Assembly: GCF_048403405.1 (NCBI RefSeq)
Contig: NZ_CP183129.1
Length of the DNA: 64,000 nt
Source of the DNA: Escherichia coli
Lineage (GTDB): Bacteria; Pseudomonadota; Gammaproteobacteria; Enterobacterales; Enterobacteriaceae
Reading direction: 5' to 3' (one strand)
In this document: piece after piece, positions 973-52,187 of the stretch
Layout: every line of letters begins with the position of its first letter
Numbering within the stretch: position 1 is the stretch's first letter
Translations under genes and position numbers: made by a program
The notes under the pieces: generated by a model
The model's database searches: none
Seen by the model: the letters and a program-made list of their open reading frames with translations, nothing else
What the model was told of the DNA's origin: nothing

Positions 973-1707
973 GTGGGTAATAATTTAATGCAGACGGATC
1001 TTTCCGTCTGGGGTATGTATCAGCACGCCGATATTGTCGTTAAGTGCGTGATGATTGGGCTTATTTTGGCCTCCGTAGTCACCTGGGCAATCTTCTTCAG
1101 TAAGAGCGTAGAGTTCTTCACTCAGAAGCGTCGCCTTAAGCGCGAGCAGCAACTGCTGGCTGAAGCGCGTTCCTTAAACCAGGCCAACGATATCGCCGCT
1201 GATTTTGGTAGCAAAAGCTTAAGCCTGCATTTGCTCAATGAAGCGCAGAATGAGCTGGAACTGTCAGAAGGCAGCGACGATAACGAAGGTATTAAAGAAC
1301 GTACCAGCTTCCGTCTGGAGCGTCGGGTCGCCGCAGTAGGTCGTCAAATGGGCCGCGGTAACGGTTATCTGGCAACCATCGGCGCGATTTCGCCGTTCGT
1401 TGGTCTGTTTGGTACGGTCTGGGGCATCATGAACAGCTTTATTGGTATCGCGCAAACGCAGACCACTAACCTGGCAGTCGTTGCGCCGGGTATTGCAGAA
1501 GCTCTGTTAGCAACGGCAATCGGCCTCGTGGCAGCGATTCCGGCGGTCGTTATCTATAACGTATTTGCACGCCAGATTGGCGGCTTTAAAGCGATGCTGG
1601 GTGATGTTGCAGCGCAGGTATTGTTGCTGCAAAGCCGTGACCTGGATCTGGAAGCCAGCGCCGCTGCGCATCCGGTTCGTGTCGCACAAAAATTACGCGC
1701 AGGATAA
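973..1707 (+). CDS. exbB: TonB-system energizer ExbB
   Basis: 244-aa ORF, GTG start, MGNNLMQTDLSVWGMYQHADIVVKCVMIGL... matches ExbB; followed 6 nt later by exbD. Confidence 0.96.
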   Translation: MGNNLMQTDLSVWGMYQHADIVVKCVMIGLILASVVTWAIFFSKSVEFFTQKRRLKREQQLLAEARSLNQANDIAADFGSKSLSLHLLNEAQNELELSEGSDDNEGIKERTSFRLERRVAAVGRQMGRGNGYLATIGAISPFVGLFGTVWGIMNSFIGIAQTQTTNLAVVAPGIAEALLATAIGLVAAIPAVVIYNVFARQIGGFKAMLGDVAAQVLLLQSRDLDLEASAAAHPVRVAQKLRAG

Positions 1708-3786: not shown

Positions 3787-4827
3787 TCATTTATCGGAAG
3801 ACGCCTGCCACAGATTCAGCTCGCCATCGGCGATATGCTGATCAATCTGCGCCAGCTCCTCGGTGCTAAATGTCAGATTATTCAGCGCCTGCACGTTCTC
3901 CTCAAGTTGCTCCGCGCGGCTGGCACCAATCAATACCGAGGTGACGCGATCATCTTTCAGCAACCAGCTTAACGCCATTTGCGCCATTGATTGTCCACGC
4001 TGCTGTGCCATTTCATGCAATAAGCGCAGGCTGTTGAGGTTGGCTTCGGTGAGCATTTTCGGCGTCAGACCACGAACTTTATTCCCTTCACGATGCATCC
4101 GTGAATCTTGCGGAATACCGTTGAGATATTTTCCGGTCAGCAATCCCTGAGCCAGAGGAGTAAAGGCAATGCAGCCCACGCCGTTATTTTGCAGAGTATC
4201 CAGCAGGCCGCTTTTATCCACCCAGCGGTTCAGTAAATTGTACGAAGGTTGATGAATTAACAGCGGAATTTTCCACTCGCGCAGTAACTCGACCATTTTT
4301 TGCGTCCGCTCTGGCGAGTAAGAGGAGATCCCGACATAAAGCGCCTTACCGCTTTGTACCGCATGAGCCAGCGCAGAGGCGGTTTCTTCCATCGGCGTAT
4401 TTTCATCGACGCGATGAGAGTAAAAGATATCGACATACTCAAGCCCCATACGCTTCAGGCTTTGGTCGAGGCTGGCGAGCAGGTATTTACGTGAACCGCC
4501 AGAGCCGTAAGGGCCGGGCCACATATCGTAGCCAGCCTTGGTAGAGATAATCAGTTCATCGCGATAAGCGGCAAAATCCTCGCGCAGCAGGCGACCAAAG
4601 TTCTCTTCTGCGCTTCCTGGAGGCGGCCCGTAATTGTTGGCTAAATCAAAGTGCGTAATGCCTAAATCAAACGCTTTACGCAGGATCGCACGCTGTGATT
4701 CCAGCGCGTTAACGTGACCGAAATTGTGCCATAAACCGAGCGATAACGCGGGCAGGCGTAAACCGCTTTTTCCGCAATAACGGTACTGCATCTGCCCGTA
4801 ACGCTCGGGATTCGCTAACCAGACCAT
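3787..4827 (-). CDS. gpr: L-glyceraldehyde 3-phosphate reductase (aldo-keto reductase)
   Basis: 346-aa ORF MVWLANPERYGQMQYRYCGKSGLRLPALSLGLWHNFG... matches Gpr (YghZ). Confidence 0.95.
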   Translation of the reverse strand: MVWLANPERYGQMQYRYCGKSGLRLPALSLGLWHNFGHVNALESQRAILRKAFDLGITHFDLANNYGPPPGSAEENFGRLLREDFAAYRDELIISTKAGYDMWPGPYGSGGSRKYLLASLDQSLKRMGLEYVDIFYSHRVDENTPMEETASALAHAVQSGKALYVGISSYSPERTQKMVELLREWKIPLLIHQPSYNLLNRWVDKSGLLDTLQNNGVGCIAFTPLAQGLLTGKYLNGIPQDSRMHREGNKVRGLTPKMLTEANLNSLRLLHEMAQQRGQSMAQMALSWLLKDDRVTSVLIGASRAEQLEENVQALNNLTFSTEELAQIDQHIADGELNLWQASSDK

Positions 4828-4983
4828 GACCTCTCCTTTCCACCATTCAATTTCGAAACAATGTTTCTAGTTTAGCGATTCATCAGCGCGTATCCCGTAG
4901 TCTGGCTCACAGAGTGACGAAAAACTGGGCAAAAACACGCGCTTATGCTTTGCTTAAAAAAACACCAACTGAGGAGTGCAACG

Positions 4984-5871
4984 ATGCCGCGTTTAACCGC
5001 CAGAGATTTCCCACAAGAGTTGCTGGATTACTATGACTATTACGCTCACGGGAAAATCTCGAAACGTGAGTTCCTCAACCTTGCGGCGAAGTATGCGGTA
5101 GGCGGGATGACGGCATTAGCGTTGTTTGATTTGCTCAAGCCAAATTATGCGCTGGCGACTCAGGTAGAGTTTACCGACCCGGAAATTGTTGCTGAGTACA
5201 TCACGTATTCTTCACCAAATGGTCACGGCGAGGTGCGGGGTTATCTGGTGAAGCCCGCAAAGATGAGCGGCAAAACGCCAGCCGTAGTGGTGGTGCATGA
5301 GAATCGTGGACTGAATCCGTATATCGAAGATGTGGCACGGCGAGTGGCGAAGGCGGGGTATATCGCCCTGGCACCTGACGGCTTAAGTTCCGTTGGAGGT
5401 TATCCGGGTAATGATGATAAAGGTCGTGAGCTGCAACAGCAGGTTGATCCAACCAAACTGATGAATGATTTCTTTGCCGCAATTGAGTTTATGCAACGCT
5501 ATCCGCAAGCGACAGGCAAAGTGGGTATTACCGGATTTTGCTATGGCGGTGGCGTATCGAACGCGGCAGCGGTCGCGTATCCGGAACTGGCCTGCGCGGT
5601 GCCGTTTTATGGTCGACAGGCACCCACCGCCGATGTGGCGAAGATTGAAGCGCCTTTACTACTCCACTACGCGGAACTGGACACCCGAATCAACGAGGGC
5701 TGGCCTGCTTACGAGGCGGCGTTGAAAGCCAATAATAAGGTCTATGAGGCGTATATCTATCCGGGGGTTAATCACGGATTCCATAATGATTCCACGCCCC
5801 GTTATGACAAATCTGCCGCCGATCTTGCCTGGCAAAGGACGCTGAAATGGTTCGATAAATATCTCTCCTGA
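4984..5871 (+). CDS. yghX: dienelactone hydrolase family protein YghX, apparently intact
   Basis: ORF track 4945..5871; likely start ATG 4984 preceded by gaggag RBS at 4970-4975; uninterrupted reading frame. Confidence 0.85.
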   Translation: MPRLTARDFPQELLDYYDYYAHGKISKREFLNLAAKYAVGGMTALALFDLLKPNYALATQVEFTDPEIVAEYITYSSPNGHGEVRGYLVKPAKMSGKTPAVVVVHENRGLNPYIEDVARRVAKAGYIALAPDGLSSVGGYPGNDDKGRELQQQVDPTKLMNDFFAAIEFMQRYPQATGKVGITGFCYGGGVSNAAAVAYPELACAVPFYGRQAPTADVAKIEAPLLLHYAELDTRINEGWPAYEAALKANNKVYEAYIYPGVNHGFHNDSTPRYDKSAADLAWQRTLKWFDKYLS

Positions 5872-5989
5872 TAGGTTTATCTCTTACGGGATTACGTCTT
5901 AAACAAGCATGAAAAAATAGCGTGCGCAAAAGTCGTTCTTTGCCTAAAATATCGCTATATATGGCAATATATAGCGAATGAGGTGAACG

Positions 5990-6277
5990 ATGAATAACCA
6001 TTTTGGTAAAGGCTTAATGGCGGGATTAAAAGCAACGCATGCCGACAGTGCGGTTAATGTGACAAAATACTGTGCCGATTATAAACGCGGTTTTGTATTA
6101 GGCTACTCACACCGGATGTACGAAAAGACCGGAGATCGCCAGCTTAGCGCCTGGGAAGCGGGTATTCTGACGCGCCGCTATGGACTGGATAAAGAGATGG
6201 TAATGGATTTCTTTCGTGAGAATAATTCCTGTTCTACGTTGCGCTTTTTTATGGCCGGTTATCGCCTCGAAAATTGA
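5990..6277 (+). CDS. yghW: small protein YghW (unknown function)
   Basis: 95-aa [38 protein letters not shown]...; gaggtg RBS 5-10 nt upstream. Confidence 0.88.
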
Positions 6278-22447: not shown

Positions 22448-23011
22448 ATGATGTCATCTCGTTTGATTATTGCGCTGATTATCATGCTCTTAGCCCCGGG
22501 TGTGCAGGCGCACAATTTCGTCACTGGTAAAACGGTTACCCCTGTTTATATCCAGGAAGGCGGCGAGCTGCTTCTGAATAGCGACGACGAAATTCACTAC
22601 CAAAAGTGGAACAGCACACAGCTGGCGGGAAAAGTCCGCATTATTCAGTATATCGCCGGGCGTAAGTCGGCGAAGAAAAAGAACTCACTGTTAATTAAAG
22701 CGGTTGAAGCGGCAAACTTTCCGCAGGATCGTTTTCAGCCTACCACCATTGTGAACACTGATGATGCCATCTTTGGTACCGGCTATTTTGTCGTTGGCAA
22801 AATCGAAAAAAATAAACGCCGCTATCCATGGGCGCAATTCGTTATTGACGGCAATGGACAGGGACGCGTTGCCTGGCACTTGCAGGAGCAGAGTTCAACC
22901 ATTCTGGTGCTGAATAAAACCGGGCAAATTCAGTGGGCAAAGGACGGCAGCCTGACGCCGGAAGAGGTAGATCATGTCATTGCGCTGGCGCAGAAGCTGA
23001 TCAATGAATAA
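22448..23011 (+). CDS. YtfJ-family periplasmic protein (paralog)
   Basis: 187-aa ORF with signal peptide MMSSRLIIALIIMLLAPGVQA; extensive similarity to E. coli YtfJ (e.g. TIVNTDDAI, LTPEEV...LAQKL). Confidence 0.8.
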   Translation: MMSSRLIIALIIMLLAPGVQAHNFVTGKTVTPVYIQEGGELLLNSDDEIHYQKWNSTQLAGKVRIIQYIAGRKSAKKKNSLLIKAVEAANFPQDRFQPTTIVNTDDAIFGTGYFVVGKIEKNKRRYPWAQFVIDGNGQGRVAWHLQEQSSTILVLNKTGQIQWAKDGSLTPEEVDHVIALAQKLINE

Positions 23012-23041
23012 AAAACTCAAAGGATTGAGGGCGTTAGTGAG

Positions 23042-24112
23042 ATGAAGCTGGTTGAACACTACATCATGCGTGGTACGCGCCGTCTGGTGCTGATTATCGT
23101 CGGTTTTCTGATCTTTATTTTCGCCAGCTACTCCGCACAGCGTTATCTGACCGAAGCGGCAAATGGGACATTAGCTCTTGATGTTGTGCTGGATATCGTT
23201 TTCTACAAAGTGCTGATTGCACTGGAGATGTTGTTACCTGTTGGACTGTATGTGTCAGTTGGCGTGACGCTAGGGCAGATGTATACCGATTCGGAAATCA
23301 CAGCTATCTCTGCGGCGGGGGGCAGTCCGGGACGCTTGTACAAAGCCGTTCTTTATCTGGCGATACCGCTAAGTATTTTTGTCACCCTTCTGTCGATGTA
23401 TGGTCGTCCGTGGGCTTATGCGCAGATTTATCAACTGGAGCAACAGTCACAGTCGGAGCTGGATGTTCGCCAGTTGCGGGCAAAGAAATTTAACACTAAC
23501 GATAACGGACGAATGATCCTTTCGCAGACGGTTGATCAGGATAATAATCGCCTGACTGACGCGCTGATTTATACTTCTACTGCCAATCGAACCCGCATTT
23601 TCCGCGCCCGTTCGGTTGATGTGGTTGACCCATCACCTGAGAAACCGACCGTTATGTTGCATAACGGGACCGCCTATCTTCTCGATCATCAGGGGCGTGA
23701 CGACAACGAACAGATCTACCGTAATCTGCAATTACATCTGAATCCGCTGGATCAAAGCCCTAACGTCAAACGCAAAGCAAAATCGGTCACGGAGCTGGCG
23801 CGCTCCGTCTTTCCAGCCGATCATGCCGAACTGCAATGGCGACAAAGCCGTGGCCTGACAGCATTGTTGATGGCGCTGCTGGCCATTTCATTAAGTCGGG
23901 TAAAACCGCGGCAAGGGCGATTTTCAACATTATTGCCACTGACGTTGCTGTTTATTGCCATTTTTTATGGCGGCGACGTCTGCCGTACGCTGGTGGCTAA
24001 CGGCGCGATTCCCCTCATTCCTGGTTTGTGGTTAGTACCCGGACTCATGCTAATGGGCCTGCTGATGCTGGTCGCACGCGACTTCTCTTTGCTGCAGAAA
24101 TTTTCCCGATGA
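23042..24112 (+). CDS. LptF/LptG (YjgP/YjgQ) family permease paralog, first of pair
   Basis: 356-aa ORF; N-terminal RY(L/I) motif, TM helices flanking a central periplasmic domain, LptF-like architecture. Confidence 0.8.
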   Translation: MKLVEHYIMRGTRRLVLIIVGFLIFIFASYSAQRYLTEAANGTLALDVVLDIVFYKVLIALEMLLPVGLYVSVGVTLGQMYTDSEITAISAAGGSPGRLYKAVLYLAIPLSIFVTLLSMYGRPWAYAQIYQLEQQSQSELDVRQLRAKKFNTNDNGRMILSQTVDQDNNRLTDALIYTSTANRTRIFRARSVDVVDPSPEKPTVMLHNGTAYLLDHQGRDDNEQIYRNLQLHLNPLDQSPNVKRKAKSVTELARSVFPADHAELQWRQSRGLTALLMALLAISLSRVKPRQGRFSTLLPLTLLFIAIFYGGDVCRTLVANGAIPLIPGLWLVPGLMLMGLLMLVARDFSLLQKFSR

Positions 24113-25188
24113 ATGTTTTCAGTCGCTATTTAATCCGTCATCTCTTTCTCGGTTTTGCCGCCGCCGCAGGGCTATTGCTGCCGCTTTTTACCACCTTCAA
24201 CCTGATTAACGAACTGGATGATGTCAGCCCGGGCGGTTATCGCTGGACTCAGGCGGTGCTGGTGGTGCTGATGACCTTACCGCGTACACTGGTCGAACTT
24301 TCGCCGTTTATCGCCTTATTGGGAGGGATTGTTGGCCTGGGGCAGTTATCGAAAAACAGTGAGCTTACCGCCATTCGCAGCACTGGGTTTTCTATCTTCC
24401 GTATTGCACTGGTGGCGCTGGTTGCCGGGATATTGTGGACTGTTTCGTTAGGCGCGATAGATGAGTGGGTGGCGTCGCCATTGCAGCAACAGGCGCTGCA
24501 AATCAAATCGACTGCCACCGCGTTGGGGGAGGACGATGACATTACCGGCAATATGCTTTGGGCCAGGCGCGGTAATGAATTTGTGACGGTGAAATCGCTG
24601 AACGAGCAGGGCCAGCCTGTGGGCGTGGAGATATTTCATTATCGCGACGATCTCTCGCTCGAATCCTACATTTTTGCACGCAGTGCCTCCATTGAAGACG
24701 ACAAAACGTGGATCCTGCATGGTGTGAATCATAAAAAATGGTTGAATGGCAAAGAAACGCTGGAAACATCAGATAATCTTGCCTGGCAATCGGCCTTCAC
24801 CAGTATGAATCTTGAAGAGTTATCGATGCCGGGAAATACTTTTTCTGTCCGTCAACTTAATCATTACATCCATTATTTGCAGGAAACCGGGCAACCCAGC
24901 AGCGAATACCGCCTTGCACTGTGGGAAAAACTGGGACAACCCATCCTGACCCTGGCGATGATTTTGCTGGCTGTGCCGTTTACCTTTAGTGCCCCGCGTT
25001 CGCCTGGGATGGGTAGCCGTCTCGCTGTAGGCGTCATCGTGGGCTTACTCACCTGGATCAGCTATCAAATCATGGTCAATCTGGGGTTGCTATTTGCGTT
25101 GAGCGCACCTGTTACCGCGCTCGGTTTACCGGTAGCGTTTGTGATGATGGCGTTGAGCCTGGTGTATTGGTATGACAGACAACATTAA
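24109..25188 (+). CDS. LptF/LptG (YjgP/YjgQ) family permease paralog, second of pair
   Basis: ORF track 24028..25188; likely start ATG 24109 overlapping upstream stop (ATGA); MNVFSRYLIRHLFLGF... LptG-like. Confidence 0.8.
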   Translation: MNVFSRYLIRHLFLGFAAAAGLLLPLFTTFNLINELDDVSPGGYRWTQAVLVVLMTLPRTLVELSPFIALLGGIVGLGQLSKNSELTAIRSTGFSIFRIALVALVAGILWTVSLGAIDEWVASPLQQQALQIKSTATALGEDDDITGNMLWARRGNEFVTVKSLNEQGQPVGVEIFHYRDDLSLESYIFARSASIEDDKTWILHGVNHKKWLNGKETLETSDNLAWQSAFTSMNLEELSMPGNTFSVRQLNHYIHYLQETGQPSSEYRLALWEKLGQPILTLAMILLAVPFTFSAPRSPGMGSRLAVGVIVGLLTWISYQIMVNLGLLFALSAPVTALGLPVAFVMMALSLVYWYDRQH

Positions 25189-25222: not shown

Positions 25223-26395
25223 TTACTGCTTCAGAGTAGCAAATGCCTGAATGATGGCATCGATTTGCTCACGACTGTGGGCAGCGTTTACGCTACAGCG
25301 CAGCAGCGTGATGCCTGCAGGCGCGGCAGGTGGCAGGATAAGATTCACATAAACGCCCAGCGAAATAAGCTCGCGCCAGATGCGTAAACCTTCCTCTTTC
25401 GAACCGATTATTACTGGCACTACCGGGCTAATATGTGAACTTAACTCATAACCCAGTTTTTGCAGACCGTCATACAGATGGTTGGCATTATCCATCAGCT
25501 TTTGCCGCAACTCTGGTTGTGTAGCAATGGTTCTTAACGACGAGCGCACGGTCGCAATGCAGGACGGAGAAGGAGAGGCGGTAAAAATATACGGGCGGCT
25601 GCCGTAGCGCAGCACTTCCATCGCTTCCGAACCGACAGCAAAACCGCCAATCGAGGCCAGACTTTTACTGAAAGTACCAACGATAATATCCACATCATCT
25701 TCAACGCCAACGGCTTCAGCCAGTCCGCGCCCCGTTGCGCCTAACACGCCAAACGAATGCGCTTCATCGACAATCAAATAACCACCGAGACGACGTTTGA
25801 TATCAACAATTTCCGCCAGCGGCGCAACGTCACCGAGCATACTGTAGATGCCTTCAACGATGATAATCGCCTCTTTTGCCCGTTCACCGAGGCGAACCAT
25901 GCGCCGTTCCAGATCTTTAGCATCGTTATGGCGGAAACGAATAATTTCCGCGCCACCGAGAGAACAGGCGTCATAAATACTGGCGTGGCTGTCGGCATCC
26001 AGTAACACCACGGCGTTATGGTCGGCAAGTGCGCTGATGACGCCTAAATTAGCGGTATAACCGGTTGAAAAAACGATAGCGGTAGGGCGATTAAAAAACT
26101 CGGCGATCTCTTTCTCTAACGCCAGATGCGGCGCATAACTGCCGTTTGCCATACGAGAACCGGTGGTGCCGGTGCCTTGGGCCGCTAACGCTGCCTGACC
26201 TTCGGCGATGGCATCATGATTGAAGGTTAATCCGAGATAATTATTGGTCCCGGCCAGAATCACTTTTTTATTGCCGATCCGGCCTTCGGTGGCGGAATAC
26301 ACTCCATCAATACAGGTACCAAACGGCGTTAACCCGTTGTCACTAAATTGCAGTCGCTCGCCAGCAAGACGCGCATATTTATCGTATAGCCCCAT
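25223..26395 (-). CDS. PLP-dependent alpha-oxoamine synthase, serine palmitoyltransferase-like
   Basis: 390-aa ORF; PLP-lysine motif VGTFSKSLASIGG; family also contains BioF/KBL/ALAS, so the SPT assignment is from gene context. Confidence 0.8.
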   Translation of the reverse strand: MGLYDKYARLAGERLQFSDNGLTPFGTCIDGVYSATEGRIGNKKVILAGTNNYLGLTFNHDAIAEGQAALAAQGTGTTGSRMANGSYAPHLALEKEIAEFFNRPTAIVFSTGYTANLGVISALADHNAVVLLDADSHASIYDACSLGGAEIIRFRHNDAKDLERRMVRLGERAKEAIIIVEGIYSMLGDVAPLAEIVDIKRRLGGYLIVDEAHSFGVLGATGRGLAEAVGVEDDVDIIVGTFSKSLASIGGFAVGSEAMEVLRYGSRPYIFTASPSPSCIATVRSSLRTIATQPELRQKLMDNANHLYDGLQKLGYELSSHISPVVPVIIGSKEEGLRIWRELISLGVYVNLILPPAAPAGITLLRCSVNAAHSREQIDAIIQAFATLKQ

Positions 26396-26643
26396 TATTT
26401 ATTCTCCAGCCATGGAAGTAGTGTTTCCATTAATTGCGCAGGGGTTTTGACATCCAGCAGAATATTAATAGGAATGGAAATATCGAATCTGTCTTCCAGC
26501 ATCATTAAGAGATCCATCACTTTGATCGACTCCAGGCCAAGATCGTTGACGAGATCGCTGTCGGGCTTAATTTCCACACCGTTTTCGACCAAATCCTGTA
26601 AACAGGAAAGGATGTAATCCATTACTATTTCACGATTTACCAT
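26395..26643 (-). CDS. dedicated acyl carrier protein
   Basis: 82-aa acidic ORF with phosphopantetheine-attachment motif DLGLESI; stop overlaps start of the downstream synthase. Confidence 0.8.
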   Translation of the reverse strand: MVNREIVMDYILSCLQDLVENGVEIKPDSDLVNDLGLESIKVMDLLMMLEDRFDISIPINILLDVKTPAQLMETLLPWLENK

Positions 26644-26674
26644 AGAAACGTTAACACACCTTTAAACAAGACAA

Positions 26675-27589
26675 TCAAAATAGCCCGTTGCGTAATGCGT
26701 GTTCCAGGCTAATCCCGGGAAACCAATTAATATCTTCAGAAATACGGTTATTACTTGCTGACCAGTCGGCGTGGGTTAATTCACGGATTTTCGAGCGGGT
26801 CAGCATAGGTTCTTTACCCGCCAGACGGCTCAACGCGGTACTGATATCCGCAAGGCAGGTGAGTACCGACAGAGGAATACCAACCATTCGAACGGAACCA
26901 CAACGGGCGTCGGCGGCAAGCTGTCTTACGCGTTGCCAGTCATAGCCGCCGGCGACGCCATCGCATAATTCATAGGTTTGCGTCTGTACAGTTTCGGCGC
27001 TTAACCACTGCCCCACGGCTTGCGCGAAATCGGTGACGTGCAGGAAAGAGAGCTGTGTATCTGGCGCACCAAGTCGTGGCAGCAGGCCGCGCAGCATCCA
27101 GTCAAACAGCGGTTTTAACTCTTTATCGCCGGGACCATACACGGCTGTCGGGCGAAAAATGCCCAGCGTAATTTCGTCAGCCATTGCGGTCAGTCGTTGT
27201 TCGGCGACGTGTTTGGAATTTGCGTACCAGGAGAGTTCGGGATGGCGCGCCGCCAGCGAAGAGATAAACAGAAAACGTTGGCAAAAGCCGCTCTCTTTTG
27301 CCGCTTGCATCAGTCGCAGGCTGCCGTCAACGTTACAGCGGGTAAAAATCTCTTCTTTGTGCCCGCGCACTTGCCCGGCGCAATGGACCACCGCGCTGGC
27401 TCCGGCAACCAGTTCGCTAAGTGAATGAGTATCTTCCAGAGAACCGCGCACCCAGGTGAGATTATCATTGACGTGAGCGCGGGCAGTACGCGTCAATGCG
27501 CGAACGTGAAAGCCGCGGGCGAGCAGGTTATCGATAATATATTTACCGATAAACCCGGTAGCGCCCGTCACCGCGACAGTTTGATTCAT
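26675..27589 (-). CDS. NAD(P)-binding epimerase/dehydratase-fold reductase (CerR-like)
   Basis: 304-aa ORF; N-terminal Rossmann motif VAVTGATGFIGKYI. Confidence 0.8.
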   Translation of the reverse strand: MNQTVAVTGATGFIGKYIIDNLLARGFHVRALTRTARAHVNDNLTWVRGSLEDTHSLSELVAGASAVVHCAGQVRGHKEEIFTRCNVDGSLRLMQAAKESGFCQRFLFISSLAARHPELSWYANSKHVAEQRLTAMADEITLGIFRPTAVYGPGDKELKPLFDWMLRGLLPRLGAPDTQLSFLHVTDFAQAVGQWLSAETVQTQTYELCDGVAGGYDWQRVRQLAADARCGSVRMVGIPLSVLTCLADISTALSRLAGKEPMLTRSKIRELTHADWSASNNRISEDINWFPGISLEHALRNGLF

Positions 27590-29334
27590 GCCAGGGATTC
27601 CTGCACATGAAGGCTTGCAGCATAAGCCTTCTGATAACGTTTTTTCGCTTCCGCACGGGCAGGCTTGCCGGAGGACGTTCGGGGAATACTGTGGGGCGGC
27701 AACAGATCGATAGCCGCGGTCACGCCAAATTCGCTTTGGATCCGTGCTGCCAGCGCGTGGATAAGCTGCCCGCGACGTTCTTCATCGCTGATCCGACACT
27801 GGATCTGCAAAATGATTTTTTCCTGGGCGGTAACAAAAGCAATCGCATCGCCAGAATGAATTTCCGGTTCCTGTTCCGCAATATATTCAATATCCTGCGG
27901 CCAGATATTACGGCCACGAATAATAATCAGATCTTTAATGCGTCCGGTGACATACAGATAACCGTCCAGCAGATAACCGAGGTCGCCGGTGTCTAACCAG
28001 CCCGTCGCGGCAATCTCGTCTTGCGAAACCTGGTCGCCAAAGTAACCGCTCATCAGGCTGGGGCCGGAGATGCAAATATGGCCTACCACACGTTCCGCGA
28101 CAGGTATACCTGCTTCATTGCGGATTTCAATGCCATGTTCCGGCAACGCTTTACCGCAGTTGACGAAAGTCGATACGGCGCGTGTTTCAGCATCCGGCGC
28201 GACGGCTTTGCCCTGATATTCGAGGATGTCGCGATCCACTTCGTTAACCACAACCCCGGAAGCTTCATCAGAGAAGCTGACAGCCAGCGCATTTTCTGCC
28301 AGTCCGTAGCACGGCATGAAAGTTTTATCGTCAAAGTTGACCTGACGGAAACATTCAGCGAATTGATGGAGTTGTTCTGCGGAGATGGGTTCTGCACCAA
28401 TACCAGCGACGCGCCAGCAGGAAAGATCCAGTTCAGCGAGATCTTTTTCATTCACGCGGCGCTGGCACAATTCATAGCCAAACGGCGGCGCAACGGAAAC
28501 GGTGCCGCGATTTTTACTGATCAATTTAAGCCATTGCAGAGGACGCATGGCAAAATCCTGAGTGCGCAAATAATCTACTGAAAGCTGCGTGGCGACGGGG
28601 GTCAGGAGAAAGCCGACCAGTCCCATATCATGGTAGAAAGGCAGCCAGGAGACGCAGCGGTCGCCAGGGCGTAATTTAATGCCATCGTGGCTTATAGCAC
28701 GTAGATTAGCCATCACTTCGCGATGGGTGATAATGACGCCACGGGGAAAACGGGTGCTGCCGGAGGTGTACTGGAGGTAGGCGATATCGTTCGGAACTGG
28801 ACGCTGGAGCGCAACATCGGCTTCCGGTAATGCCTTAAACCAGGCGTGGCTTAAAACATGTAATTCGGGGTTGTTATGCGTAGCGGCATTGACCAGTGGC
28901 AACCACTCATCACCAGTGATAATGGCTGCGGGCTGGCAACTTGCCAGTAAACCCTGCAGTTTGGCGCTCCAGGAATCCCGCTGACCGACGCCCATTGGAA
29001 TCGCCAACGGGACGGCGACTAAGCCGGCATACTGGCAGGAAAAAAAAGCCTCTACGAACCCGCTACTGGTTTCGGCAATCAGCGCCACGCGATCGCCTTT
29101 TTTCAGGTTCAGCGATAACAACCGCTTCGCACCAGCTTCGGCACGCGCTTTTAACGTCTGATATTCCAGTTGATCTTCAAGTTGGCAACGTCTGTCATAA
29201 AAATTCATTCCGGCGCTACTCAGAGCGGCGTAGTCCAAAGCATCAACCAGCGTTGGAAAATCGGCATAGCGCATAGGTAGGGAATGCGTAAAGATTTTAT
29301 TAGACATATACACCACGAAAAAATTGGATATCAA
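27586..29334 (-). CDS. AMP-dependent synthetase/ligase (fatty acyl-AMP / acyl-ACP ligase-like)
   Basis: 582-aa ORF; adenylation motif YTSGSTRFPRGV; the true start may be the internal ATG at complement of 29305-29307 (MSNKIF). Confidence 0.8.
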   Translation of the reverse strand: MISNFFVVYMSNKIFTHSLPMRYADFPTLVDALDYAALSSAGMNFYDRRCQLEDQLEYQTLKARAEAGAKRLLSLNLKKGDRVALIAETSSGFVEAFFSCQYAGLVAVPLAIPMGVGQRDSWSAKLQGLLASCQPAAIITGDEWLPLVNAATHNNPELHVLSHAWFKALPEADVALQRPVPNDIAYLQYTSGSTRFPRGVIITHREVMANLRAISHDGIKLRPGDRCVSWLPFYHDMGLVGFLLTPVATQLSVDYLRTQDFAMRPLQWLKLISKNRGTVSVAPPFGYELCQRRVNEKDLAELDLSCWRVAGIGAEPISAEQLHQFAECFRQVNFDDKTFMPCYGLAENALAVSFSDEASGVVVNEVDRDILEYQGKAVAPDAETRAVSTFVNCGKALPEHGIEIRNEAGIPVAERVVGHICISGPSLMSGYFGDQVSQDEIAATGWLDTGDLGYLLDGYLYVTGRIKDLIIIRGRNIWPQDIEYIAEQEPEIHSGDAIAFVTAQEKIILQIQCRISDEERRGQLIHALAARIQSEFGVTAAIDLLPPHSIPRTSSGKPARAEAKKRYQKAYAASLHVQESLA

Positions 29335-43520: not shown

Positions 43521-44057
43521 ATGTTACGCGATAAATTTATTCACTATTTTCAGCAATGGCGTGAACGCCAGTTAAGCCGTGGCGAACACTGGCTGACACA
43601 ACACCTGGCGGGGCGTTCTCCGCGTGAAAAAGGCATGTTACTGGCAGCGGTAGTGTTCCTGTTTAGCGCCGGATATTACGTCCTCATCTGGCAGCCGTTG
43701 AGCGAACGGATAGAACAACAGGAGACGATGTTGCAGCAGCTGGTGGCGATGAACGCGCGACTGAAGAGCGCCGCGCCGAATATTATTGCGGCGCGAAAAT
43801 CCGGCACGACAACGCCAGCACAGGTATCGCGGGTCATCAGCGACAGCGCTTCCGCGCACTCTGTGGTCATCAAACGGATTGCCGAGCGTGGGGAGAATAT
43901 TCAGGTCTGGATAGAACCTGTGGTGTTTAATGACCTGCTGAACTGGTTAAAGGCGCTGGATGAAAAGTACGCGCTGCGGGTGGCACAAATTGATGTCAGT
44001 GCGGGTGAGAAGCCTGGGATGGTGAATGTGCAGCGACTGGAGTTTGGGCGGGGGTAG
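43521..44057 (+). CDS. gspM: type II secretion protein GspM (YghD)
   Basis: 178-aa ORF MLRDKFIHYFQQWRERQLSRGEHWLTQHLAGRSPREKGMLLAAVVFLF... with single TM helix. Confidence 0.85.
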   Translation: MLRDKFIHYFQQWRERQLSRGEHWLTQHLAGRSPREKGMLLAAVVFLFSAGYYVLIWQPLSERIEQQETMLQQLVAMNARLKSAAPNIIAARKSGTTTPAQVSRVISDSASAHSVVIKRIAERGENIQVWIEPVVFNDLLNWLKALDEKYALRVAQIDVSAGEKPGMVNVQRLEFGRG

Positions 44058-45230: not shown

Positions 45231-46007
45231 ATGGCAAGAAGTGGATTTGAAGTCCAGAAAGTCACCGTAGAGGCATTATTTCTACGAGAAATACGAACAC
45301 GCTTTGGTAAGTTCCGTCTGGGATATCTGTGGGCGATTCTCGAACCCTCTGCGCATTTGCTGATACTGTTGGGCATTTTTGGTTACATTATGCACCGCAC
45401 GATGCCAGACATCTCGTTCCCGGTGTTTTTACTTAATGGCCTGATTCCCTTTTTTATCTTTAGCAGTATCAGCAAACGTTCTGTAAGTGCTATTGAAGCG
45501 AACCAGGGGCTGTTTAATTATCGCCCAGTAAAACCCATCGATACGATCATTGCGCGCGCCCTGCTTGAGACGCTGATTTACGTTTCTGTTTATATTCTGC
45601 TTATGCTCATTGTCAGGATGGCAGGCGAATATTTCGAGATAACAAATTTTTTACAACTTGTGGCTACCTGGAGTCTGCTGATCATTCTTTCATGCAGCGT
45701 CGGCTTAATATTCATGGTCGTTGGTAAAACCTTCCCCGAAATGCAAAAGGTTCTGCCGATACTTCTTAAGCCCCTTTATTTCATCTCCTGCATCATGTTC
45801 CCTCTGCACTCAATTCCAAAGCAATACTGGTCATATCTACTCTGGAACCCACTAGTGCATGTCGTGGAGTTAAGCCGTGAGGCCGTTATGCCTGGCTATA
45901 TTAGCGAAGGTGTGAGTCTGAACTACCTGGCAATGTTCACATTGATAACTCTGTTCATTGGTCTGGCGTTATATCGAACTCGTGAGGAGGCAATGCTGAC
46001 ATCATGA
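45231..46007 (+). CDS. kpsM: group 2 capsule ABC exporter permease
   Basis: ORF track 45171..46007; MARSGFEVQKVTVEALFLREIRTRFGKFRLGYLWAILEP... begins at ATG 45231. Confidence 0.93.
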   Translation: MARSGFEVQKVTVEALFLREIRTRFGKFRLGYLWAILEPSAHLLILLGIFGYIMHRTMPDISFPVFLLNGLIPFFIFSSISKRSVSAIEANQGLFNYRPVKPIDTIIARALLETLIYVSVYILLMLIVRMAGEYFEITNFLQLVATWSLLIILSCSVGLIFMVVGKTFPEMQKVLPILLKPLYFISCIMFPLHSIPKQYWSYLLWNPLVHVVELSREAVMPGYISEGVSLNYLAMFTLITLFIGLALYRTREEAMLTS

Positions 46008-46675
46008 TTAAGATTGAGAATTTGACGAAGTCATATCGCACGCCAACGGGTCGACATTATGTGTTTAAGGATTTAAACCTCGAAATCCCTTCAGGAAAAA
46101 GTGTTGCCTTTATTGGTCGTAATGGTGCGGGTAAATCAACGTTACTGAGAATGATTGGTGGCATTGACCGCCCCGACAGTGGAAAGATCATCACTAATAA
46201 AACAGTATCATGGCCAGTCGGCCTTGCAGGTGGATTTCAGGGAAGTTTAACCGGACGCGAAAACGTAAAATTTGTTGCGCGGTTATACGCGAAGCAAGAA
46301 GAACTGAAAGAGAAAATTGAGTTTGTTGAAGAATTTGCCGAACTTGGCAAGTACTTCGATATGCCGATTAAAACTTACTCATCAGGTATGCGATCGCGTT
46401 TAGGCTTTGGTTTAAGCATGGCATTTAAGTTTGATTATTATATCGTCGATGAAGTAACGGCGGTCGGTGATGCCAGGTTTAAAGAAAAATGCGCTCAATT
46501 GTTTAAAGAAAGGCATAAAGAATCTAGCTTTTTAATGGTTTCACATAGTTTGAATTCATTGAAAGAGTTTTGTGATGTGGCGCTATTCATACCTAGAGAT
46601 CATCAGACTTGTCTTTATCAGAATATTAATGACGCAATTAAGTTATATCAAAATGATGAAAATTTGAACATTTAG
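46004..46675 (+). CDS. kpsT: group 2 capsule ABC exporter ATPase
   Basis: 223-aa ORF with Walker A GRNGAGKST and ABC signature YSSGMRSRL; overlaps kpsM stop. Confidence 0.93.
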   Translation: MIKIENLTKSYRTPTGRHYVFKDLNLEIPSGKSVAFIGRNGAGKSTLLRMIGGIDRPDSGKIITNKTVSWPVGLAGGFQGSLTGRENVKFVARLYAKQEELKEKIEFVEEFAELGKYFDMPIKTYSSGMRSRLGFGLSMAFKFDYYIVDEVTAVGDARFKEKCAQLFKERHKESSFLMVSHSLNSLKEFCDVALFIPRDHQTCLYQNINDAIKLYQNDENLNI

Positions 46676-46686
46676 TGGAGCTAAAA

Positions 46687-47082
46687 ATGCGTAAAGTTAT
46701 CACCTTTGGTACATTTGATGTATTACATATAGGTCATATAAATATCTTAAAAAGGGCAAAAAAAATGGGGGACTATCTAATAGTTGGCGTCTCATCCGAT
46801 TATTTGAATTTCTCAAAAAAACAGAGGTATCCTGTTTATCCGGAAACTGAGCGTCTTGAAATAATTAGGTCCTTAAAATTTGTAGATGAAGTTTTTATTG
46901 AAGAGTCATTGGAATTAAAGGGCGAGTATATTAAAAAATTTAAGGCAGATATCTTAGTGATGGGAGATGATTGGCTAGGGCGATTTGATGAATATAAGGA
47001 ATTATGTGAAGTATCATATCTGCCAAGAACTGTTGGTATTTCAACGACAGAACTAATTTCTCAAATCAAAAGATATGGTTAA
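46687..47082 (+). CDS. glycerol-3-phosphate cytidylyltransferase (TagD-like)
   Basis: ORF track 46675..47082; MRKVITFGTFDVLHIGHINILKRAKKMGDYLIVGVSSD... HxGH nucleotidyltransferase motif, strong similarity to Bacillus TagD. Confidence 0.88.
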   Translation: MRKVITFGTFDVLHIGHINILKRAKKMGDYLIVGVSSDYLNFSKKQRYPVYPETERLEIIRSLKFVDEVFIEESLELKGEYIKKFKADILVMGDDWLGRFDEYKELCEVSYLPRTVGISTTELISQIKRYG

Positions 47083-47097
47083 TTTTGGAGAGGGATT

Positions 47098-48333
47098 TTG
47101 AAATTTCATTCAGAGATAAAAAACTCTATAAAAAATGCGAAGAAATTCAAAGGTATTTTATTTGTTAATATAATATCTTATCTGCTGCTAACAATTGCGA
47201 TAAGAAAAGGTCATTCGAAAGAGATTTTAAAATTTAAGTGGTTGATTTTACTTTTTGGCGGGAGTGTCGCTAAATATTTTGTTGCTAGGGCTTCATTTCT
47301 TAATGGTGATTATATATTTGCTAAGAAATTATATCAAGAGATAATTAAGGTAAACCCAATACATACTGATAGCTATTATGGGTTGGCTGATGTTTATAGA
47401 CTAACCGGAAATAAATTAGAAGCGAAGGATGTACTCATTCAAGTTTTTAATTTTTCTGATCGTTTGAAAACTTGGCTATTATTGGCGAACTTGGTTGATA
47501 CAAAAAAAGATTATGATGAATTATTGAATCATTGGGAAAGGGAATGTTCTTATAGGAATATACTTAAGTATCATTATGATGTGAACGATTACCTTATAAT
47601 TGCTGCGTTAAGGGCTAAACTATATGAAGAAGCATTAAATCGGGTTAAAGTATTGTTGGGAAGTATAAATTCTGAGGCTTTTATCTTACCAAAAACTAGC
47701 AATAAAAACTTTTCTGTTAATGCTGCTAAAATTGCATTATTAGGTCTAAAAAAAATATTGGATGCTAATAAAATACAGTTTTTTTTAGTTAGCGGAACAT
47801 TACTTGGTTGTATTCGTGATAAAAAATTACTAAAACATGACAAAGATATTGATATAGGAGTATGGAGCGAAACAAATCTATCCGTATTATCAACGAAAAT
47901 TGCTTGCTCTGGCTTGTTTGATATTGCACCTATGCGCTCACCGTATACGTTGAGAATAAAACATGTTAATGGTGTGGCAATCGACATATTTTTTCATTAT
48001 CGAGATCATGACAGCTATTGGCATGCGGGTTCAAAGCTGAGATGGAACAATACTCCATTTAATTTGATTTCTTATGGTTTTCTTGGGAACGTGTTTTTAA
48101 TACCAGAAAATTATGATTTATATTTGACTGAGAATTATGGAAACTGGATGCAAGAAAAAATGAAATTTGACTCTGCATTCGATACACCCAATCATGAAAT
48201 AGTTAATATGTATGAATTAAAAATACACGCGTATAAAAAGCTAATAATAAACATGAAAATTGGTAGTGTTGAAGGCGTTAGATATTATGAAGATAAATTA
48301 AATGAACTTGGGTGTATTATATCTAAGCCTTGA
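47098..48333 (+). CDS. two-domain protein: N-terminal TPR-like region plus C-terminal LicD-family phosphotransferase domain
   Basis: 411-aa ORF (TTG start after ggagaggg RBS); LicD-type motif SGTLLGCIRDKKLLKHDKDIDIG. Confidence 0.65.
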   Translation: MKFHSEIKNSIKNAKKFKGILFVNIISYLLLTIAIRKGHSKEILKFKWLILLFGGSVAKYFVARASFLNGDYIFAKKLYQEIIKVNPIHTDSYYGLADVYRLTGNKLEAKDVLIQVFNFSDRLKTWLLLANLVDTKKDYDELLNHWERECSYRNILKYHYDVNDYLIIAALRAKLYEEALNRVKVLLGSINSEAFILPKTSNKNFSVNAAKIALLGLKKILDANKIQFFLVSGTLLGCIRDKKLLKHDKDIDIGVWSETNLSVLSTKIACSGLFDIAPMRSPYTLRIKHVNGVAIDIFFHYRDHDSYWHAGSKLRWNNTPFNLISYGFLGNVFLIPENYDLYLTENYGNWMQEKMKFDSAFDTPNHEIVNMYELKIHAYKKLIINMKIGSVEGVRYYEDKLNELGCIISKP

Positions 48334-48386
48334 GGTCTATATAACTGAATATATTAAATATTAAAAAATAATCATGGGGACATAGT

Positions 48387-51300: not shown

Positions 51301-52187
51301 CTTACCAACGAGAGTTTTTAAGGCTCTTTGGCTATAGTCATATTGATCATCTAATCCATTTTGAAGGTTATAATCAATCTTGGGTTATCCGGTTTGCTAA
51401 TGCTCCGAAAGATACAGTTAGAAATAAAATAATATTTCAACATAATGATAAGTTGAGCGAGTGGAGAGAAAGATTTCCATATCTTAGAGTTGTTTTTGAT
51501 TTTTATAAATCTTACAATAAAATTGTTTCTGTTTCTGAAAAAACGATGGAGTTGAACAGAGATAACTTAAGCGAATTTTTTAATATTGAGCATGATAAGT
51601 TTATTTATTGTGATAATGTTCAGAATCCAGATGAGGTGATTAAAAAATCTGATGATATTGATACAAGTGGATTTATTTTTGAAAATGATAAAATCTACTT
51701 TATAACTTTGGGCAGACTTTCAGTCGAAAAAGATCAACAAAAGTTGATTAATGCCTTTTGCAGATTACAAAAATTATATCCTAATATTGAGTTATTAATT
51801 CTTGGAGACGGCCCCCTCAAGATTGATTTACAACGCCAGATTATAACTTTAGGACTTGAAAAATCCGTACATCTTCTGGGACGCATATCAAATCCTTTTC
51901 CACTGCTAAAGAGAGCTGACTGTTTTGTCCTCTCTTCAAATCATGAAGGGCAACCTATGGTTCTTTTCGAAGCAATGATTCTAGATAAACCTATAATATC
52001 AACTGACATTACTGGTTCTAGAAGTGCTCTTGAAGGGCGTTCTGGTGTATTAGTTGAAAATAGTGTAGACGGTCTCTTCAACGGAATGCGGGACTTTATC
52101 TTGGGAAGGTTGGAGTTTAAACATTTTGACATTGAATCTTATCAAAAAAATGCTTTGTCGATGTTTTATGAAAAATGCCTTCATTAA
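48387..52187 (+). CDS. multidomain capsule polymerase: TPR repeats, TagF-like CDP-glycerol glycerophosphotransferase, GT4 glycosyltransferase
   Basis: 1266-aa ORF; TPR repeats in the first ~450 aa; TagF-family motif NTWHGTPIKFLG; GT-B/GT4 motif NHEGQPMVLFEAM near the C-terminus. Confidence 0.8.
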   Translation: MLLTKLAKKICQSKEYINGISLYKKKEWEKALLFFEKSIIKKTKHAESYFKAGICNLKLHRYEEAFKYISKALELEPSNIQWKEQLEQCARHLDKLNNHMVSKSSTEEDLLREKLNTDFNNPKLHDRLAEVLHKKGRWWQEVDTLKNAIKLDPSIPERYFKLGTALEKMGRFNEASIYYKKGLEFNKKHDAIWYYALGYSLESDETNNVENVRSSKIAYATAISLDKKLNSNKFGIGAFHQYKGRWAKAIDAYEKHTSINPLCAELYYRLGLSYDRCYQWDKAAENYRKALSLDENHPYWHYRLGFVLERSQKYLDAAVAYQFAAQSNIKHISIWYYRSGYAYAKANKYRQSCEMYIKAYDSSQEIYASQIKVIDNNDTHLNSYRKKLKYESRINTLESAISNSCINYGLWYELGKTYESSCNWNDAVIAYHEGIMRNNTYTKDYYYRIGYSLFRDGNYQQACNFFRKIEIFGTPYGAPDDILTKNLTFRRNATYTEFYETLSIEKNTILYESFHGASISCNPYALFLDIIDDQRFDNFRHIWVINNEKKIPEQLKNKKNVYFVSRQSDLYMQCLASCEFLINNVSFPEYFIRKKGQRYLNTWHGTPIKFLGKDIKDEFLAHKNVARNFLHTTHLLSPNTHTTNILLDRYDISNIFSGEIKELGYPRIDRTINLSSERKEYIRRKINANVYDKVVLYAPTWRGIHGKATLDIEKLKNDLEKLADQDCHIVFRGHHMIEKLVSEQNISGITIVPSEIDTNELLGAIDILITDYSSIAFDFFVMNRPVIYYAYDIEQYNNERGLYFPLNELPGTVCFNDVELLNTLSGYLRNEIYFDASKGIDKFCKNDDGSVCGKVIEWFFFEEKSILLNKNKNKNILFYIGPFIPNGILSSWLNLISVIDRDKYNISLVVDPKLIHGFQERFEQFKRVSPDIQVIGTCGNMLYNIEEKWLNDKLNNQFTLASKEMYDILDHAYQREFLRLFGYSHIDHLIHFEGYNQSWVIRFANAPKDTVRNKIIFQHNDKLSEWRERFPYLRVVFDFYKSYNKIVSVSEKTMELNRDNLSEFFNIEHDKFIYCDNVQNPDEVIKKSDDIDTSGFIFENDKIYFITLGRLSVEKDQQKLINAFCRLQKLYPNIELLILGDGPLKIDLQRQIITLGLEKSVHLLGRISNPFPLLKRADCFVLSSNHEGQPMVLFEAMILDKPIISTDITGSRSALEGRSGVLVENSVDGLFNGMRDFILGRLEFKHFDIESYQKNALSMFYEKCLH

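What the first reader, a model, noticed from the sequence alone, without database searches (positions are those of the whole stretch)
4945..5871. yghX is an intact reading frame here
My recollection is that the K-12 dienelactone hydrolase homolog yghX is annotated as a frameshifted pseudogene. In this window the frame is uninterrupted (about 295 aa from the RBS-preceded ATG at 4984), so this strain probably retains the functional ancestral allele.
Basis: partly seen in the sequence, partly recalled or inferred. Interest (0 to 1): 0.4.

Follow-up and report, generated by a model that had tools for sequence, protein, structure and literature searches.

The report
Intact yghX hydrolase gene, pseudogene in K-12
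This E. coli strain carries the normal, uninterrupted version of a hydrolase gene (yghX) that the laboratory strain K-12 lost through two small deletions; this is the usual state in about 70% of sequenced E. coli and is already annotated, so it is ordinary.

Summary
Window 4984-5871 (+) is an uninterrupted 295-codon yghX gene preceded by a GAGGAG ribosome-binding site. The longest mechanical ORF starts at 4945, but homologues and the K-12 yqhI start place the real start at 4984.

K-12 MG1655 annotates yghX as a pseudogene. It differs by two deletions, not one: TA at window 5092-5093 (codon 37) and one C at 5453-5454 (codon 157).

Allele-specific probes on 5,426 complete E. coli genomes gave these counts:
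- The TA deletion is in 1,505 genomes.
- The C deletion is in 1,199 genomes, apparently nested within the first group.
- About 70% of genomes have neither deletion.

All 80 retrieved orthologues from other species are full length (73-97% identity, dN/dS about 0.03). Intact is therefore the ancestral and majority state.

The catalytic Cys186/Asp233/His264 are present, and the O157 orthologue has a crystal structure (PDB 4ZV9). One caveat: this allele has Ser76 where all 80 homologues have Pro.

Two side results. The N-terminus resembles a twin-arginine (Tat) export signal, with KR replacing RR. The K-12 "small protein" YqhI is the N-terminal stump of frameshifted YghX.

Verdict: already known, low interest.

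The parts
4984..5871 (+). yghX coding sequence, 295 codons plus stop; YghX-family (dienelactone-hydrolase-fold) hydrolase precursor
   Evidence: ORF listing and sequence. Identical CDS annotated in strain U1. NF041440 585 bits; Pfam DLH residues 84-294 plus YqhI-like residues 1-36.
4945..4983 (+). In-frame upstream extension of the mechanical ORF (13 codons from an earlier ATG); probably not translated
   Evidence: Homologues and RefSeq start at 4984. The K-12 yqhI start at the equivalent ATG was validated by tagging (PMC6001520).
4972..4977 (+). Shine-Dalgarno sequence GAGGAG, 6 nt before the ATG
   Evidence: Read directly from the sequence.
4984..5157 (+). N-terminal 58 residues. Residues 1-25 form a conserved extension (Pfam YqhI-like). 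S26-K27-R28-E29-F30-L31 (5059-5076) is a Tat-like motif. Residues 32-51 are a moderately hydrophobic stretch. A56-L57-A58 (5149-5157) is an AxA site.
   Evidence: Alignment of 81 orthologues: R28 and F30 invariant, position 27 K in 59 and R in 22, A56/A58 near-invariant. Of 43 full-length cluster representatives, 33 have RR and 3 have KR. TIGR01409 reaches threshold in one homologue and is sub-threshold in five more. The PDB 4ZV9 construct begins at about residue 59.
5092..5093 (+). TA dinucleotide in codon 37 (TAT), present here and deleted in K-12-type alleles; the first, older lesion
   Evidence: Alignment with NC_000913.3. ATCC 8739 has only this deletion on the K-12 SNP haplotype. The deletion-allele probe hits 1,505 genomes.
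5453..5454 (+). CC in codon 157 (ACC); one C is deleted in K-12; the second, nested lesion
   Evidence: Alignment. The deletion-allele probe hits 1,199 genomes and the intact probe hits 4,221.
5233..5865 (+). Dienelactone-hydrolase (alpha/beta-hydrolase) catalytic domain, residues 84-294
   Evidence: Pfam PF01738, E = 3e-48. AF2 model mean pLDDT 94.8. The model superposes on 4ZV9 at TM 0.98 and rmsd 1.1 A, and on 1DIN at TM 0.84.
5539..5541 (+). Cys186 codon (TGC), nucleophile in the G-F-C-Y-G-G motif
   Evidence: Invariant in 81/81 close orthologues. The Cys triad of 4ZV9 is described in PMC11878206 and PMC8533429.
5680..5682 (+). Asp233 codon (GAC), triad acid
   Evidence: Invariant in 81/81 orthologues and in the 51-sequence distant alignment.
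5773..5775 (+). His264 codon (CAC), triad base
   Evidence: Invariant in 81/81 orthologues.
5209..5211 (+). Ser76 codon (TCT): lineage-specific substitution at a position that is Pro in all 80 homologues and in K-12, O157 and other E. coli alleles
   Evidence: Column counts. The Ser76 haplotype probe hits only 145 of 5,426 genomes. Other E. coli alleles have Pro76.
3787..4827 (-). gpr (yghZ), aldo-keto reductase, divergently transcribed neighbour
   Evidence: ORF and annotation. An AKR neighbour occurs in 36 of 81 loci.
5990..6277 (+). yghW (DUF2623), downstream neighbour

Best explanation
Window 4984-5871 is the intact, ancestral-type yghX gene of E. coli. It encodes a 295-residue precursor of a dienelactone-hydrolase-fold enzyme that uses a Cys186-His264-Asp233 triad to hydrolyse an ester, lactone or thioester bond. 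The natural substrate is unknown.

Shown: the frame is intact and the catalytic residues are present. The family is under strong purifying selection. The O157 orthologue folds into a crystallisable DLH domain. K-12 lost the gene through two nested deletions, TA in codon 37 first and then one C in codon 157.

Inferred: the first 58 residues act as a twin-arginine-type (Tat) signal peptide, here with S-K-R-E-F-L in place of S-R-R-x-F-L, preceded by an unusually conserved 25-residue extension. On this reading the folded enzyme is exported to the periplasm and cleaved after Ala58.

Also inferred: the gene is expressed. In K-12 the same start codon drives synthesis of YqhI, a 47-residue protein made of the first 36 residues of YghX plus 11 frameshifted ones. 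YqhI synthesis is induced by low Mg2+.
For: - Intact ORF and RBS. RefSeq CDS identical. NF041440 585 bits against a 460 cut-off.
- K-12 pseudogene annotation. Two deletions located. Nestedness shown by ATCC 8739 (TA deletion only) versus CFSAN061762 (both), on one SNP haplotype.
- Population counts. TA present in 3,490 + 290 genomes, TA deleted in 1,505. C present in 4,221, C deleted in 1,199. RefSeq flags the deleted alleles as 'frameshifted'.
- Outgroups: 588 confirmed relatives, and the best 80 are all full length at 73-97% identity. dN/dS is 0.03-0.07.
- Triad and the H105/E106 motif are invariant.
- PDB 4ZV9 (O157 Sakai, residues about 59-294) scores E = 8e-160. The AF2 model has pLDDT 94.8 and TM 0.98 to 4ZV9. 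The 4ZV9 Cys triad is described in PMC11878206 and PMC8533429. The protein was purified as 'EcoDLH' (bioRxiv 10.1101/2025.10.30.685675).
- Tat-like signal. RR is present in 33 of 43 distant full-length representatives and in 22 of 81 close orthologues. R28 and F30 are invariant and AxA is conserved. TIGR01409 scores 17.4 bits (cut-off 16.7) in P0033 and 13.7-16.4 bits in five others, all at the same position. KR variants are known to work with Tat (PMC1182353).
- YqhI sequence and its validation (PMC6001520). Low-Mg2+ induction (PMC11429745).
Against: - No enzymatic activity has been shown for this allele. Ser76 replaces a Pro that is invariant in 80/80 homologues.
- EcoDLH showed no phosphotriesterase activity in the one panel found, and no natural substrate is known.
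- Neither the NCBIfam nor the Pfam scan returned a Tat-signal match on the window protein itself.
- AlphaFold2 gives residues 1-60 a pLDDT of 87-92 as three short helices. This is atypical for a disposable signal peptide and fits a structured N-terminal domain.
- The simple sigma-70 consensus scan found no + strand promoter upstream.
- The full-length ORF status of every genome was not determined. Only the two K-12 lesion sites were scored.
Confidence: 0.9

Rival explanations
1. The frame is intact but the enzyme is impaired. The lineage-specific Pro76-to-Ser change, at a residue invariant across the whole family, destabilises the first beta-hairpin. On this reading the allele is 'intact' only in the annotation sense.
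For: Pro76 is present in 80/80 homologues and in K-12, O157 and B2-type E. coli alleles. Ser76 is confined to 145 of 5,426 genomes.
Against: The AF2 model built on the Ser76 sequence is confident throughout, with pLDDT 97-98 around residues 70-90. All catalytic residues are intact. The allele persists in 145 genomes without further lesions being noticed. Residue 76 lies within the first predicted strand (68-77), just before the turn to the next strand (82-91).
Confidence: 0.12
2. The N-terminal 58 residues are not a cleaved Tat signal. They are instead a permanent, folded N-terminal module, either a cap or lid on a cytoplasmic enzyme or an uncleaved membrane anchor. The RR/KR-x-F-L resemblance would then be coincidental or vestigial.
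For: AF2 pLDDT is 87-92 for residues 1-60, modelled as three short helices. The n-region is unusually conserved and has its own Pfam family, PF23678. No Tat HMM hit was found on the window protein. Seven of 43 distant representatives lack the motif.
Against: The h-region varies freely in sequence among distant homologues while staying Ala/Gly/Ser/Thr-rich and hydrophobic, as signal peptides do. AxA is conserved at the junction, and one homologue has a lipobox there. TIGR01409 matches at exactly this position in 6 of 15 homologues. The crystallised construct lacks residues 1-58 and folds normally.
Confidence: 0.3
3. The intact frame is an artefact (assembly error) or a secondary reversion of a K-12-like pseudogene, rather than retention of the ancestral allele.
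For: Among E. coli alleles the window sequence is closest to the K-12/ATCC 8739 haplotype, differing by 11 SNPs in the CDS.
Against: The same intact state occurs in thousands of independent genomes and in every outgroup examined. The window matches strain U1 at all but 8 of 64,000 bases. Exact re-insertion of TA and C would be needed for a reversion.
Confidence: 0.02

Closest known systems
[quoted passage not shown]
   Same: Same gene, with about 97-98% identity over residues 59-294. Same Cys-His-Asp triad. The AF2 model superposes at TM 0.98 and rmsd 1.1 A.
   Different: The window allele has Ser76 (O157 has Pro), Val69 (Phe), Ser135 (Asn) and Tyr229 (Phe). The crystal construct lacks the N-terminal 58 residues.
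K-12 yghX pseudogene (b4658) plus yqhI (b4755)
   Same: Orthologous locus between gpr and yghW. Same promoter region, RBS and start codon. Eleven SNPs within the CDS.
   Different: K-12 lacks TA (codon 37) and one C (codon 157). It makes only the 47-residue YqhI stump and no hydrolase.
Dienelactone hydrolase ClcD of Pseudomonas knackmussii (PDB 1DIN)
   Same: Alpha/beta-hydrolase DLH fold (TM 0.84). Cys nucleophile in a G-x-C-x-G motif, and His/Asp triad.
   Different: Only about 25% identity. ClcD is a cytoplasmic chlorocatechol-pathway enzyme without the 58-residue N-terminal region. YghX is not in an aromatic-degradation operon, and dienelactone activity is untested.
Natural Tat signal peptides with a KR motif (Salmonella TtrB), and RR-to-KR mutants of SufI and TorA
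   Same: K-R-x-F-L motif followed by a mildly hydrophobic h-region and AxA.
   Different: Tat dependence of YghX has not been tested. YghX has a conserved 25-residue extension ahead of the motif and no known cofactor.

Membership tests
YghX family hydrolase (NCBIfam NF041440) | Whole-protein score above the curated cut-off (460 bits) with end-to-end coverage of the 292-position profile | tested here: met
   585.4 bits; residues 3-294 match profile positions 1-292.
Dienelactone hydrolase family (Pfam PF01738) | Match to the DLH profile and DLH alpha/beta-hydrolase fold | tested here: met
   164.7 bits against a cut-off of 21. The model superposes on 1DIN at TM 0.84 and on 4ZV9 at TM 0.98.
Dienelactone hydrolase family (Pfam PF01738) | Cys-His-Asp catalytic triad (G-x-C-x-G nucleophile elbow) | tested here: met
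   C186 (GFCYGG), D233 and H264 are present and invariant in 81 orthologues. The triad is described for 4ZV9.
Dienelactone hydrolase family (Pfam PF01738) | Hydrolysis of dienelactone (carboxymethylenebutenolide) to maleylacetate | not testable with these tools
The only activity report found for EcoDLH is a negative phosphotriesterase test.
Tat (twin-arginine) exported proteins | S/T-R-R-x-F-L-K motif at the n/h boundary of an N-terminal signal | tested here: inconclusive
   The window has S-K-R-E-F-L-N, a KR variant. Neither HMM scan returned a Tat-signal match on it. RR is present in 22/81 close and 33/43 distant relatives. TIGR01409 passes in 1 of 15 homologues tested and falls just below threshold in 5.
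Tat (twin-arginine) exported proteins | Mildly hydrophobic h-region followed by an AxA signal-peptidase site | tested here: met
   Residues 32-51 have a mean Kyte-Doolittle value of 1.16. A56-L57-A58 is conserved. The crystal construct starts just after it.
Tat (twin-arginine) exported proteins | Export that depends on TatABC | not testable with these tools
   Requires fractionation or reporter fusions in a tat mutant.
K-12-type yghX pseudogene | TA deletion in codon 37 and/or C deletion in codon 157 | tested here: not met
   Both sites carry the undeleted sequence in the window.

The most novel reading that the evidence does not exclude
The YghX family is highly conserved (73-91% identity from E. 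coli to Pseudomonas, Rhizobiales and Rhodobacterales). It may be a Tat-exported periplasmic cysteine hydrolase whose signal peptide carries a conserved, AlphaFold-confident 25-residue extension. The experimentally validated K-12 'small protein' YqhI would then be only the decapitated signal-peptide stump of frameshifted YghX. The low-Mg2+ induction and the non-complementable deletion phenotype ascribed to yqhI would reflect yghX regulation or the locus, not a dedicated small-protein gene. Neither YqhI paper read here mentions yghX as a pseudogene.
Probability: 0.5. Interest if true: 0.3.

Novelty: already known. Interest (0 to 1): 0.1.

Why it matters
It matters little for discovery. RefSeq already annotates intact yghX in most E. 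coli strains with a dedicated family model, and the O157 protein has a deposited crystal structure.

It is useful as a reminder that K-12 is the exception at this locus. Metabolic engineers use K-12 yghX as a neutral integration site (PMC7677707), which would not be neutral in roughly 70% of E. coli strains. It also shows that the catalogued K-12 small protein YqhI is a by-product of pseudogenisation.

If the Tat-export reading is right, non-K-12 E. coli have one more Tat substrate than the K-12-based lists show.

Tried and rejected
- A sigma-70 consensus scan of 4700-6100 found no + strand promoter upstream of yghX. Expression is therefore argued only from K-12 YqhI data.
- Pfam and NCBIfam scans at E <= 10 returned no Tat-signal match on the window protein. 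The Tat reading rests on homologues and motif anatomy.
- A literature search for 'dienelactone hydrolase' plus 'twin-arginine' found nothing on this family. The alpha-proteobacterial Tat survey does not mention it.
- A lipobox scan of 150 representatives gave only one convincing case, P0133. This is weak support.
- A probe for a hypothetical TAC (Tyr37) intact allele matched nothing. The genomes left unscored at site 1 are largely a third intact haplotype, with 290 exact matches. About 140 genomes remain unscored.
- 'EcN_Sk', which matched the C-deletion probe, was checked as a possible independent event in a B2 strain. It carries the K-12-type gpr allele and a frameshifted yghX, so it is not independent.
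- The aldo-keto-reductase neighbour (36 of 81 loci) was considered as a functional clue. Within enterics it is plain synteny, and AKRs are too common for the Pseudomonas cases to mean much.
- The old proposal that YghX is a cPHB polymerase, based on its GXCXG motif (PMC3709699), has no experimental support in the text read.

Full report
**Observation.** The + strand carries an ORF from 4945 to 5871 (308 aa from the first ATG) with no interruption. The supported start is the ATG at 4984, preceded by GAGGAG at 4972-4977, which gives 295 residues. RefSeq annotates exactly this CDS as 'YghX family hydrolase' (WP_001445837.1) in E. coli strain U1. The whole 64-kb window equals the U1 chromosome (NZ_CP041359.1 488351-552350, reverse strand) apart from 8 mismatches, none of them in yghX. 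Neighbours are gpr/yghZ (3787-4827, minus strand) and yghW (5990-6277), then the hyb operon. The protein scores 585 bits on NCBIfam NF041440 (cut-off 460). It contains Pfam DLH (residues 84-294) and 'YqhI-like' (residues 1-36).

**K-12 comparison.** NC_000913.3 annotates yghX (b4658) as a pseudogene at 3146856-3147691 and a separate 47-codon gene, yqhI (b4755), over its 5' end. Alignment of the window with K-12 shows two deletions in K-12. TA is missing at window 5092-5093 (codon 37, TAT). One C is missing from the CC at 5453-5454 (codon 157). Fourteen substitutions also occur across the aligned 1.1 kb, eleven of them inside the CDS. The deletions sum to 3 nt, so the first 36 codons and the last ~138 codons share a frame. 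The ~120 codons between them are shifted and full of stops. The annotated K-12 pseudogene starts at an out-of-frame ATG (window-equivalent 5033), which masks the first deletion. The true 5' end is what K-12 calls yqhI. YqhI reads MPRLTAKDFPQELLDYYDYYAHGKISKREFLNLAAK followed by 11 frameshifted residues.

**Population frequency.** I used 50-53-nt probes centred on each lesion, so that megablast's 28-nt seed requirement makes them allele-specific. Results among 5,426 complete E. coli genomes:

| Site | Allele | Genomes | Calls |
|---|---|---|---|
| Site 1 (TA) | TA present, window-type flanks | 3,490 | 12 |
| Site 1 (TA) | TA present, third haplotype (exact matches) | 290 | 79, 80 |
| Site 1 (TA) | TA deleted | 1,505 | 13 |
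| Site 1 (TA) | Unscored | about 140 | derived |
| Site 2 (C) | C present | 4,221 | 14 |
| Site 2 (C) | C deleted | 1,199 | 15 |

- ATCC 8739 carries the K-12 SNP haplotype with only the TA deletion, while CFSAN061762 has both. The TA deletion therefore came first and the C deletion arose within that lineage.
- RefSeq flags both types as 'frameshifted'.
- Carriers of the deletions include K-12, W3110, MC4100, ATCC 8739 and ETEC H10407.
- O157:H7, O145 and the urinary isolate 1162C are intact.
- If nesting holds, about 72% of genomes have neither deletion.
- Rare other lesions exist. One example is an IS1-associated truncation in strain IAL7255.

**Ancestral state and constraint.** A scan of one genome per species found at least 588 relatives. 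The best 80 are all uninterrupted at 293-305 aa. They span Citrobacter, Enterobacter, Klebsiella, Yersinia, Erwinia, Pseudomonas, Rhodoferax, Rhizobium, Brucella, Paracoccus and Thalassospira, at 73-97% identity. In the alignment, 107 of 295 positions are invariant. dN/dS between the window and other species is about 0.03-0.07. Intact is thus both the ancestral and the majority state. Apart from the two deletions, K-12 differs from the window by only 8 synonymous and 3 non-synonymous changes in the CDS, so the loss is recent.

**Likely function.**
- *Catalytic residues.* The triad Cys186 (GFCYGG), Asp233 and His264, and the HENRG motif, are invariant in the 81 close orthologues.
- *Structure.* PDB 4ZV9 is the 2.0 A structure of the O157 Sakai orthologue, covering residues about 59-294. 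It has no publication but is cited as an E. coli DLH with a Cys triad. An AF2 model of the window protein (mean pLDDT 94.8) superposes on 4ZV9 at TM 0.98, and on ClcD (1DIN) at TM 0.84.
- *Activity.* The protein has been purified as 'EcoDLH' and showed no promiscuous phosphotriesterase activity. No natural substrate is known.
- *Caveat.* The window allele has Ser76 where all 80 homologues and other E. coli alleles have Pro, and Arg7 where 78 have Lys. The Ser76 haplotype is in only 145 genomes. 'Functional' is therefore probable, not shown.

**N-terminus.** Residues 26-31 are S-K-R-E-F-L. They are followed by AAKYAVGGMTALALFDLL and then KPNYALA.
- In Pseudomonas orthologues the motif is N-R-R-E-F-L-D.
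- Among 43 full-length representatives of 50%-identity clusters, 33 have RR, 3 have KR and 7 have neither. Their h-regions vary freely in sequence but stay Ala/Gly/Ser/Thr-rich.
- TIGR01409 (Tat signal) reaches its cut-off in P0033 (17.4 against 16.7 bits) and scores 13.7-16.4 bits at the same place in five others. It does not match the window protein.
- KR variants are known to be Tat-competent (PMC1182353).
- The 4ZV9 construct starts right after the AxA.
- Against a simple signal peptide: the 25 residues ahead of the motif are strongly conserved, and AF2 models residues 1-60 as three short helices with pLDDT 87-92.

I rate Tat export as the better reading (about 0.55-0.6), with a structured N-terminal module or anchor as the rival (about 0.3).

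**Expression.** No consensus promoter was found. In K-12, YqhI is detectable when tagged (PMC6001520). Its synthesis rises at low Mg2+ independently of PhoQP (PMC11429745). yghX transcripts also appear in K-12 transcriptomes. The same start codon and RBS are present in the window, so expression of the full-length protein is likely. Neither YqhI paper mentions yghX as a pseudogene or a frameshift.

**Nuance.** In alleles with only the TA deletion (1,505 minus 1,199, roughly 300 genomes if nesting holds), an alternative ATG opens a 278-codon ORF. It encodes MTITLTGKSRNVSSSTLRRS fused to the native hydrophobic stretch and the complete catalytic domain. Those alleles may not be null, whereas K-12-type alleles certainly are.

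**Verdict.** The finding is accurate and its interpretation is supported. It describes a known, annotated strain polymorphism in which K-12 is the minority state. Novelty: already known. Interest: low.

Noticed in passing
K-12 locus L001 4598-4741 (yqhI), equivalent to window 4984-5091 plus the shifted frame: The validated K-12 small protein YqhI (47 aa) is the first 36 residues of YghX plus 11 frameshifted residues. It is a by-product of the TA deletion. The two YqhI papers read do not mention this.
   Followed up: partly
L083 684-1520 (ATCC 8739), equivalent to window 5033-5871: Alleles with only the 2-bp deletion keep a 278-codon ORF from an alternative ATG. It fuses a new basic N-terminus (…STLRRS) to the native hydrophobic region and the whole catalytic domain, so they may still make an exported enzyme.
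   Followed up: partly
window 4984-5160 (residues 1-59): AlphaFold2 models the signal-like N-terminus with pLDDT 87-92 as three short helices, which is unusual for a signal peptide. The motif L-Y-D-x-Y-x-H ahead of the RR/KR is conserved even in homologues at 40% identity.
   Followed up: partly
window 5952-5977: A perfect 11-bp inverted repeat, TCGCTATATAT-(TGCC)-ATATATAGCGA, lies just upstream of the yghW RBS. It overlaps the region where a constitutive K-12 promoter was mapped in the yghW-yghX spacer (PMC3946193). The 5869-5990 RNA fold has z = -3.5. It may be an operator or a stem-loop.
   Followed up: no
window 25223-29307 (minus strand): A cluster is annotated in strain U1 as fatty acyl-AMP ligase, NAD-dependent epimerase/dehydratase, acyl carrier protein and serine palmitoyltransferase (spt). 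It resembles bacterial sphingolipid or ceramide-type biosynthesis gene sets.
   Followed up: no
window 19462-25188: Next to the spt cluster lies an extra LptF/LptG-family permease pair, a YtfJ-family protein, two hypothetical proteins and a 'lipopolysaccharide biosynthesis protein'. This pair is distinct from the essential lptFG locus elsewhere on the chromosome.
   Followed up: no
window 40403-44057: Decayed type II secretion remnant. gspL is frameshifted and gspK is annotated as a partial gene next to an IS4 element whose transposase is itself frameshifted. yghD (GspM family) is intact.
   Followed up: no
window 45231-62431: kps-type capsule locus. It holds kpsF/E/D/U/C/S-like genes, a serotype-specific region with a 3.8-kb CDP-glycerol glycerophosphotransferase gene, and an ABC exporter pair.
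   Followed up: no
window 63242-64000: An IS110 transposase fragment and a frameshifted AbiEii/AbiGii-family toxin gene lie at the window edge.
   Followed up: no
window 973-1707: exbB is named 'tol-pal system-associated acyl-CoA thioesterase' in the U1 RefSeq annotation, whereas K-12 annotates the gene at the corresponding position next to exbD as Ton complex subunit ExbB. This looks like an annotation naming error.
   Followed up: no
L088 3002-3097 (strain IAL7255): An independent yghX lesion: only a 175-bp 3' remnant survives, next to an IS1 element and relocated beside mdtM/yjiN.
   Followed up: partly
loci L077, L081, L082 (Pseudomonas, Thalassospira) and window 3787-4827: An aldo-keto reductase lies next to yghX in 36 of 81 loci. 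It is divergent in enterics and convergent and immediately downstream in some Pseudomonas and Thalassospira loci. This could be a functional link or chance.
   Followed up: partly
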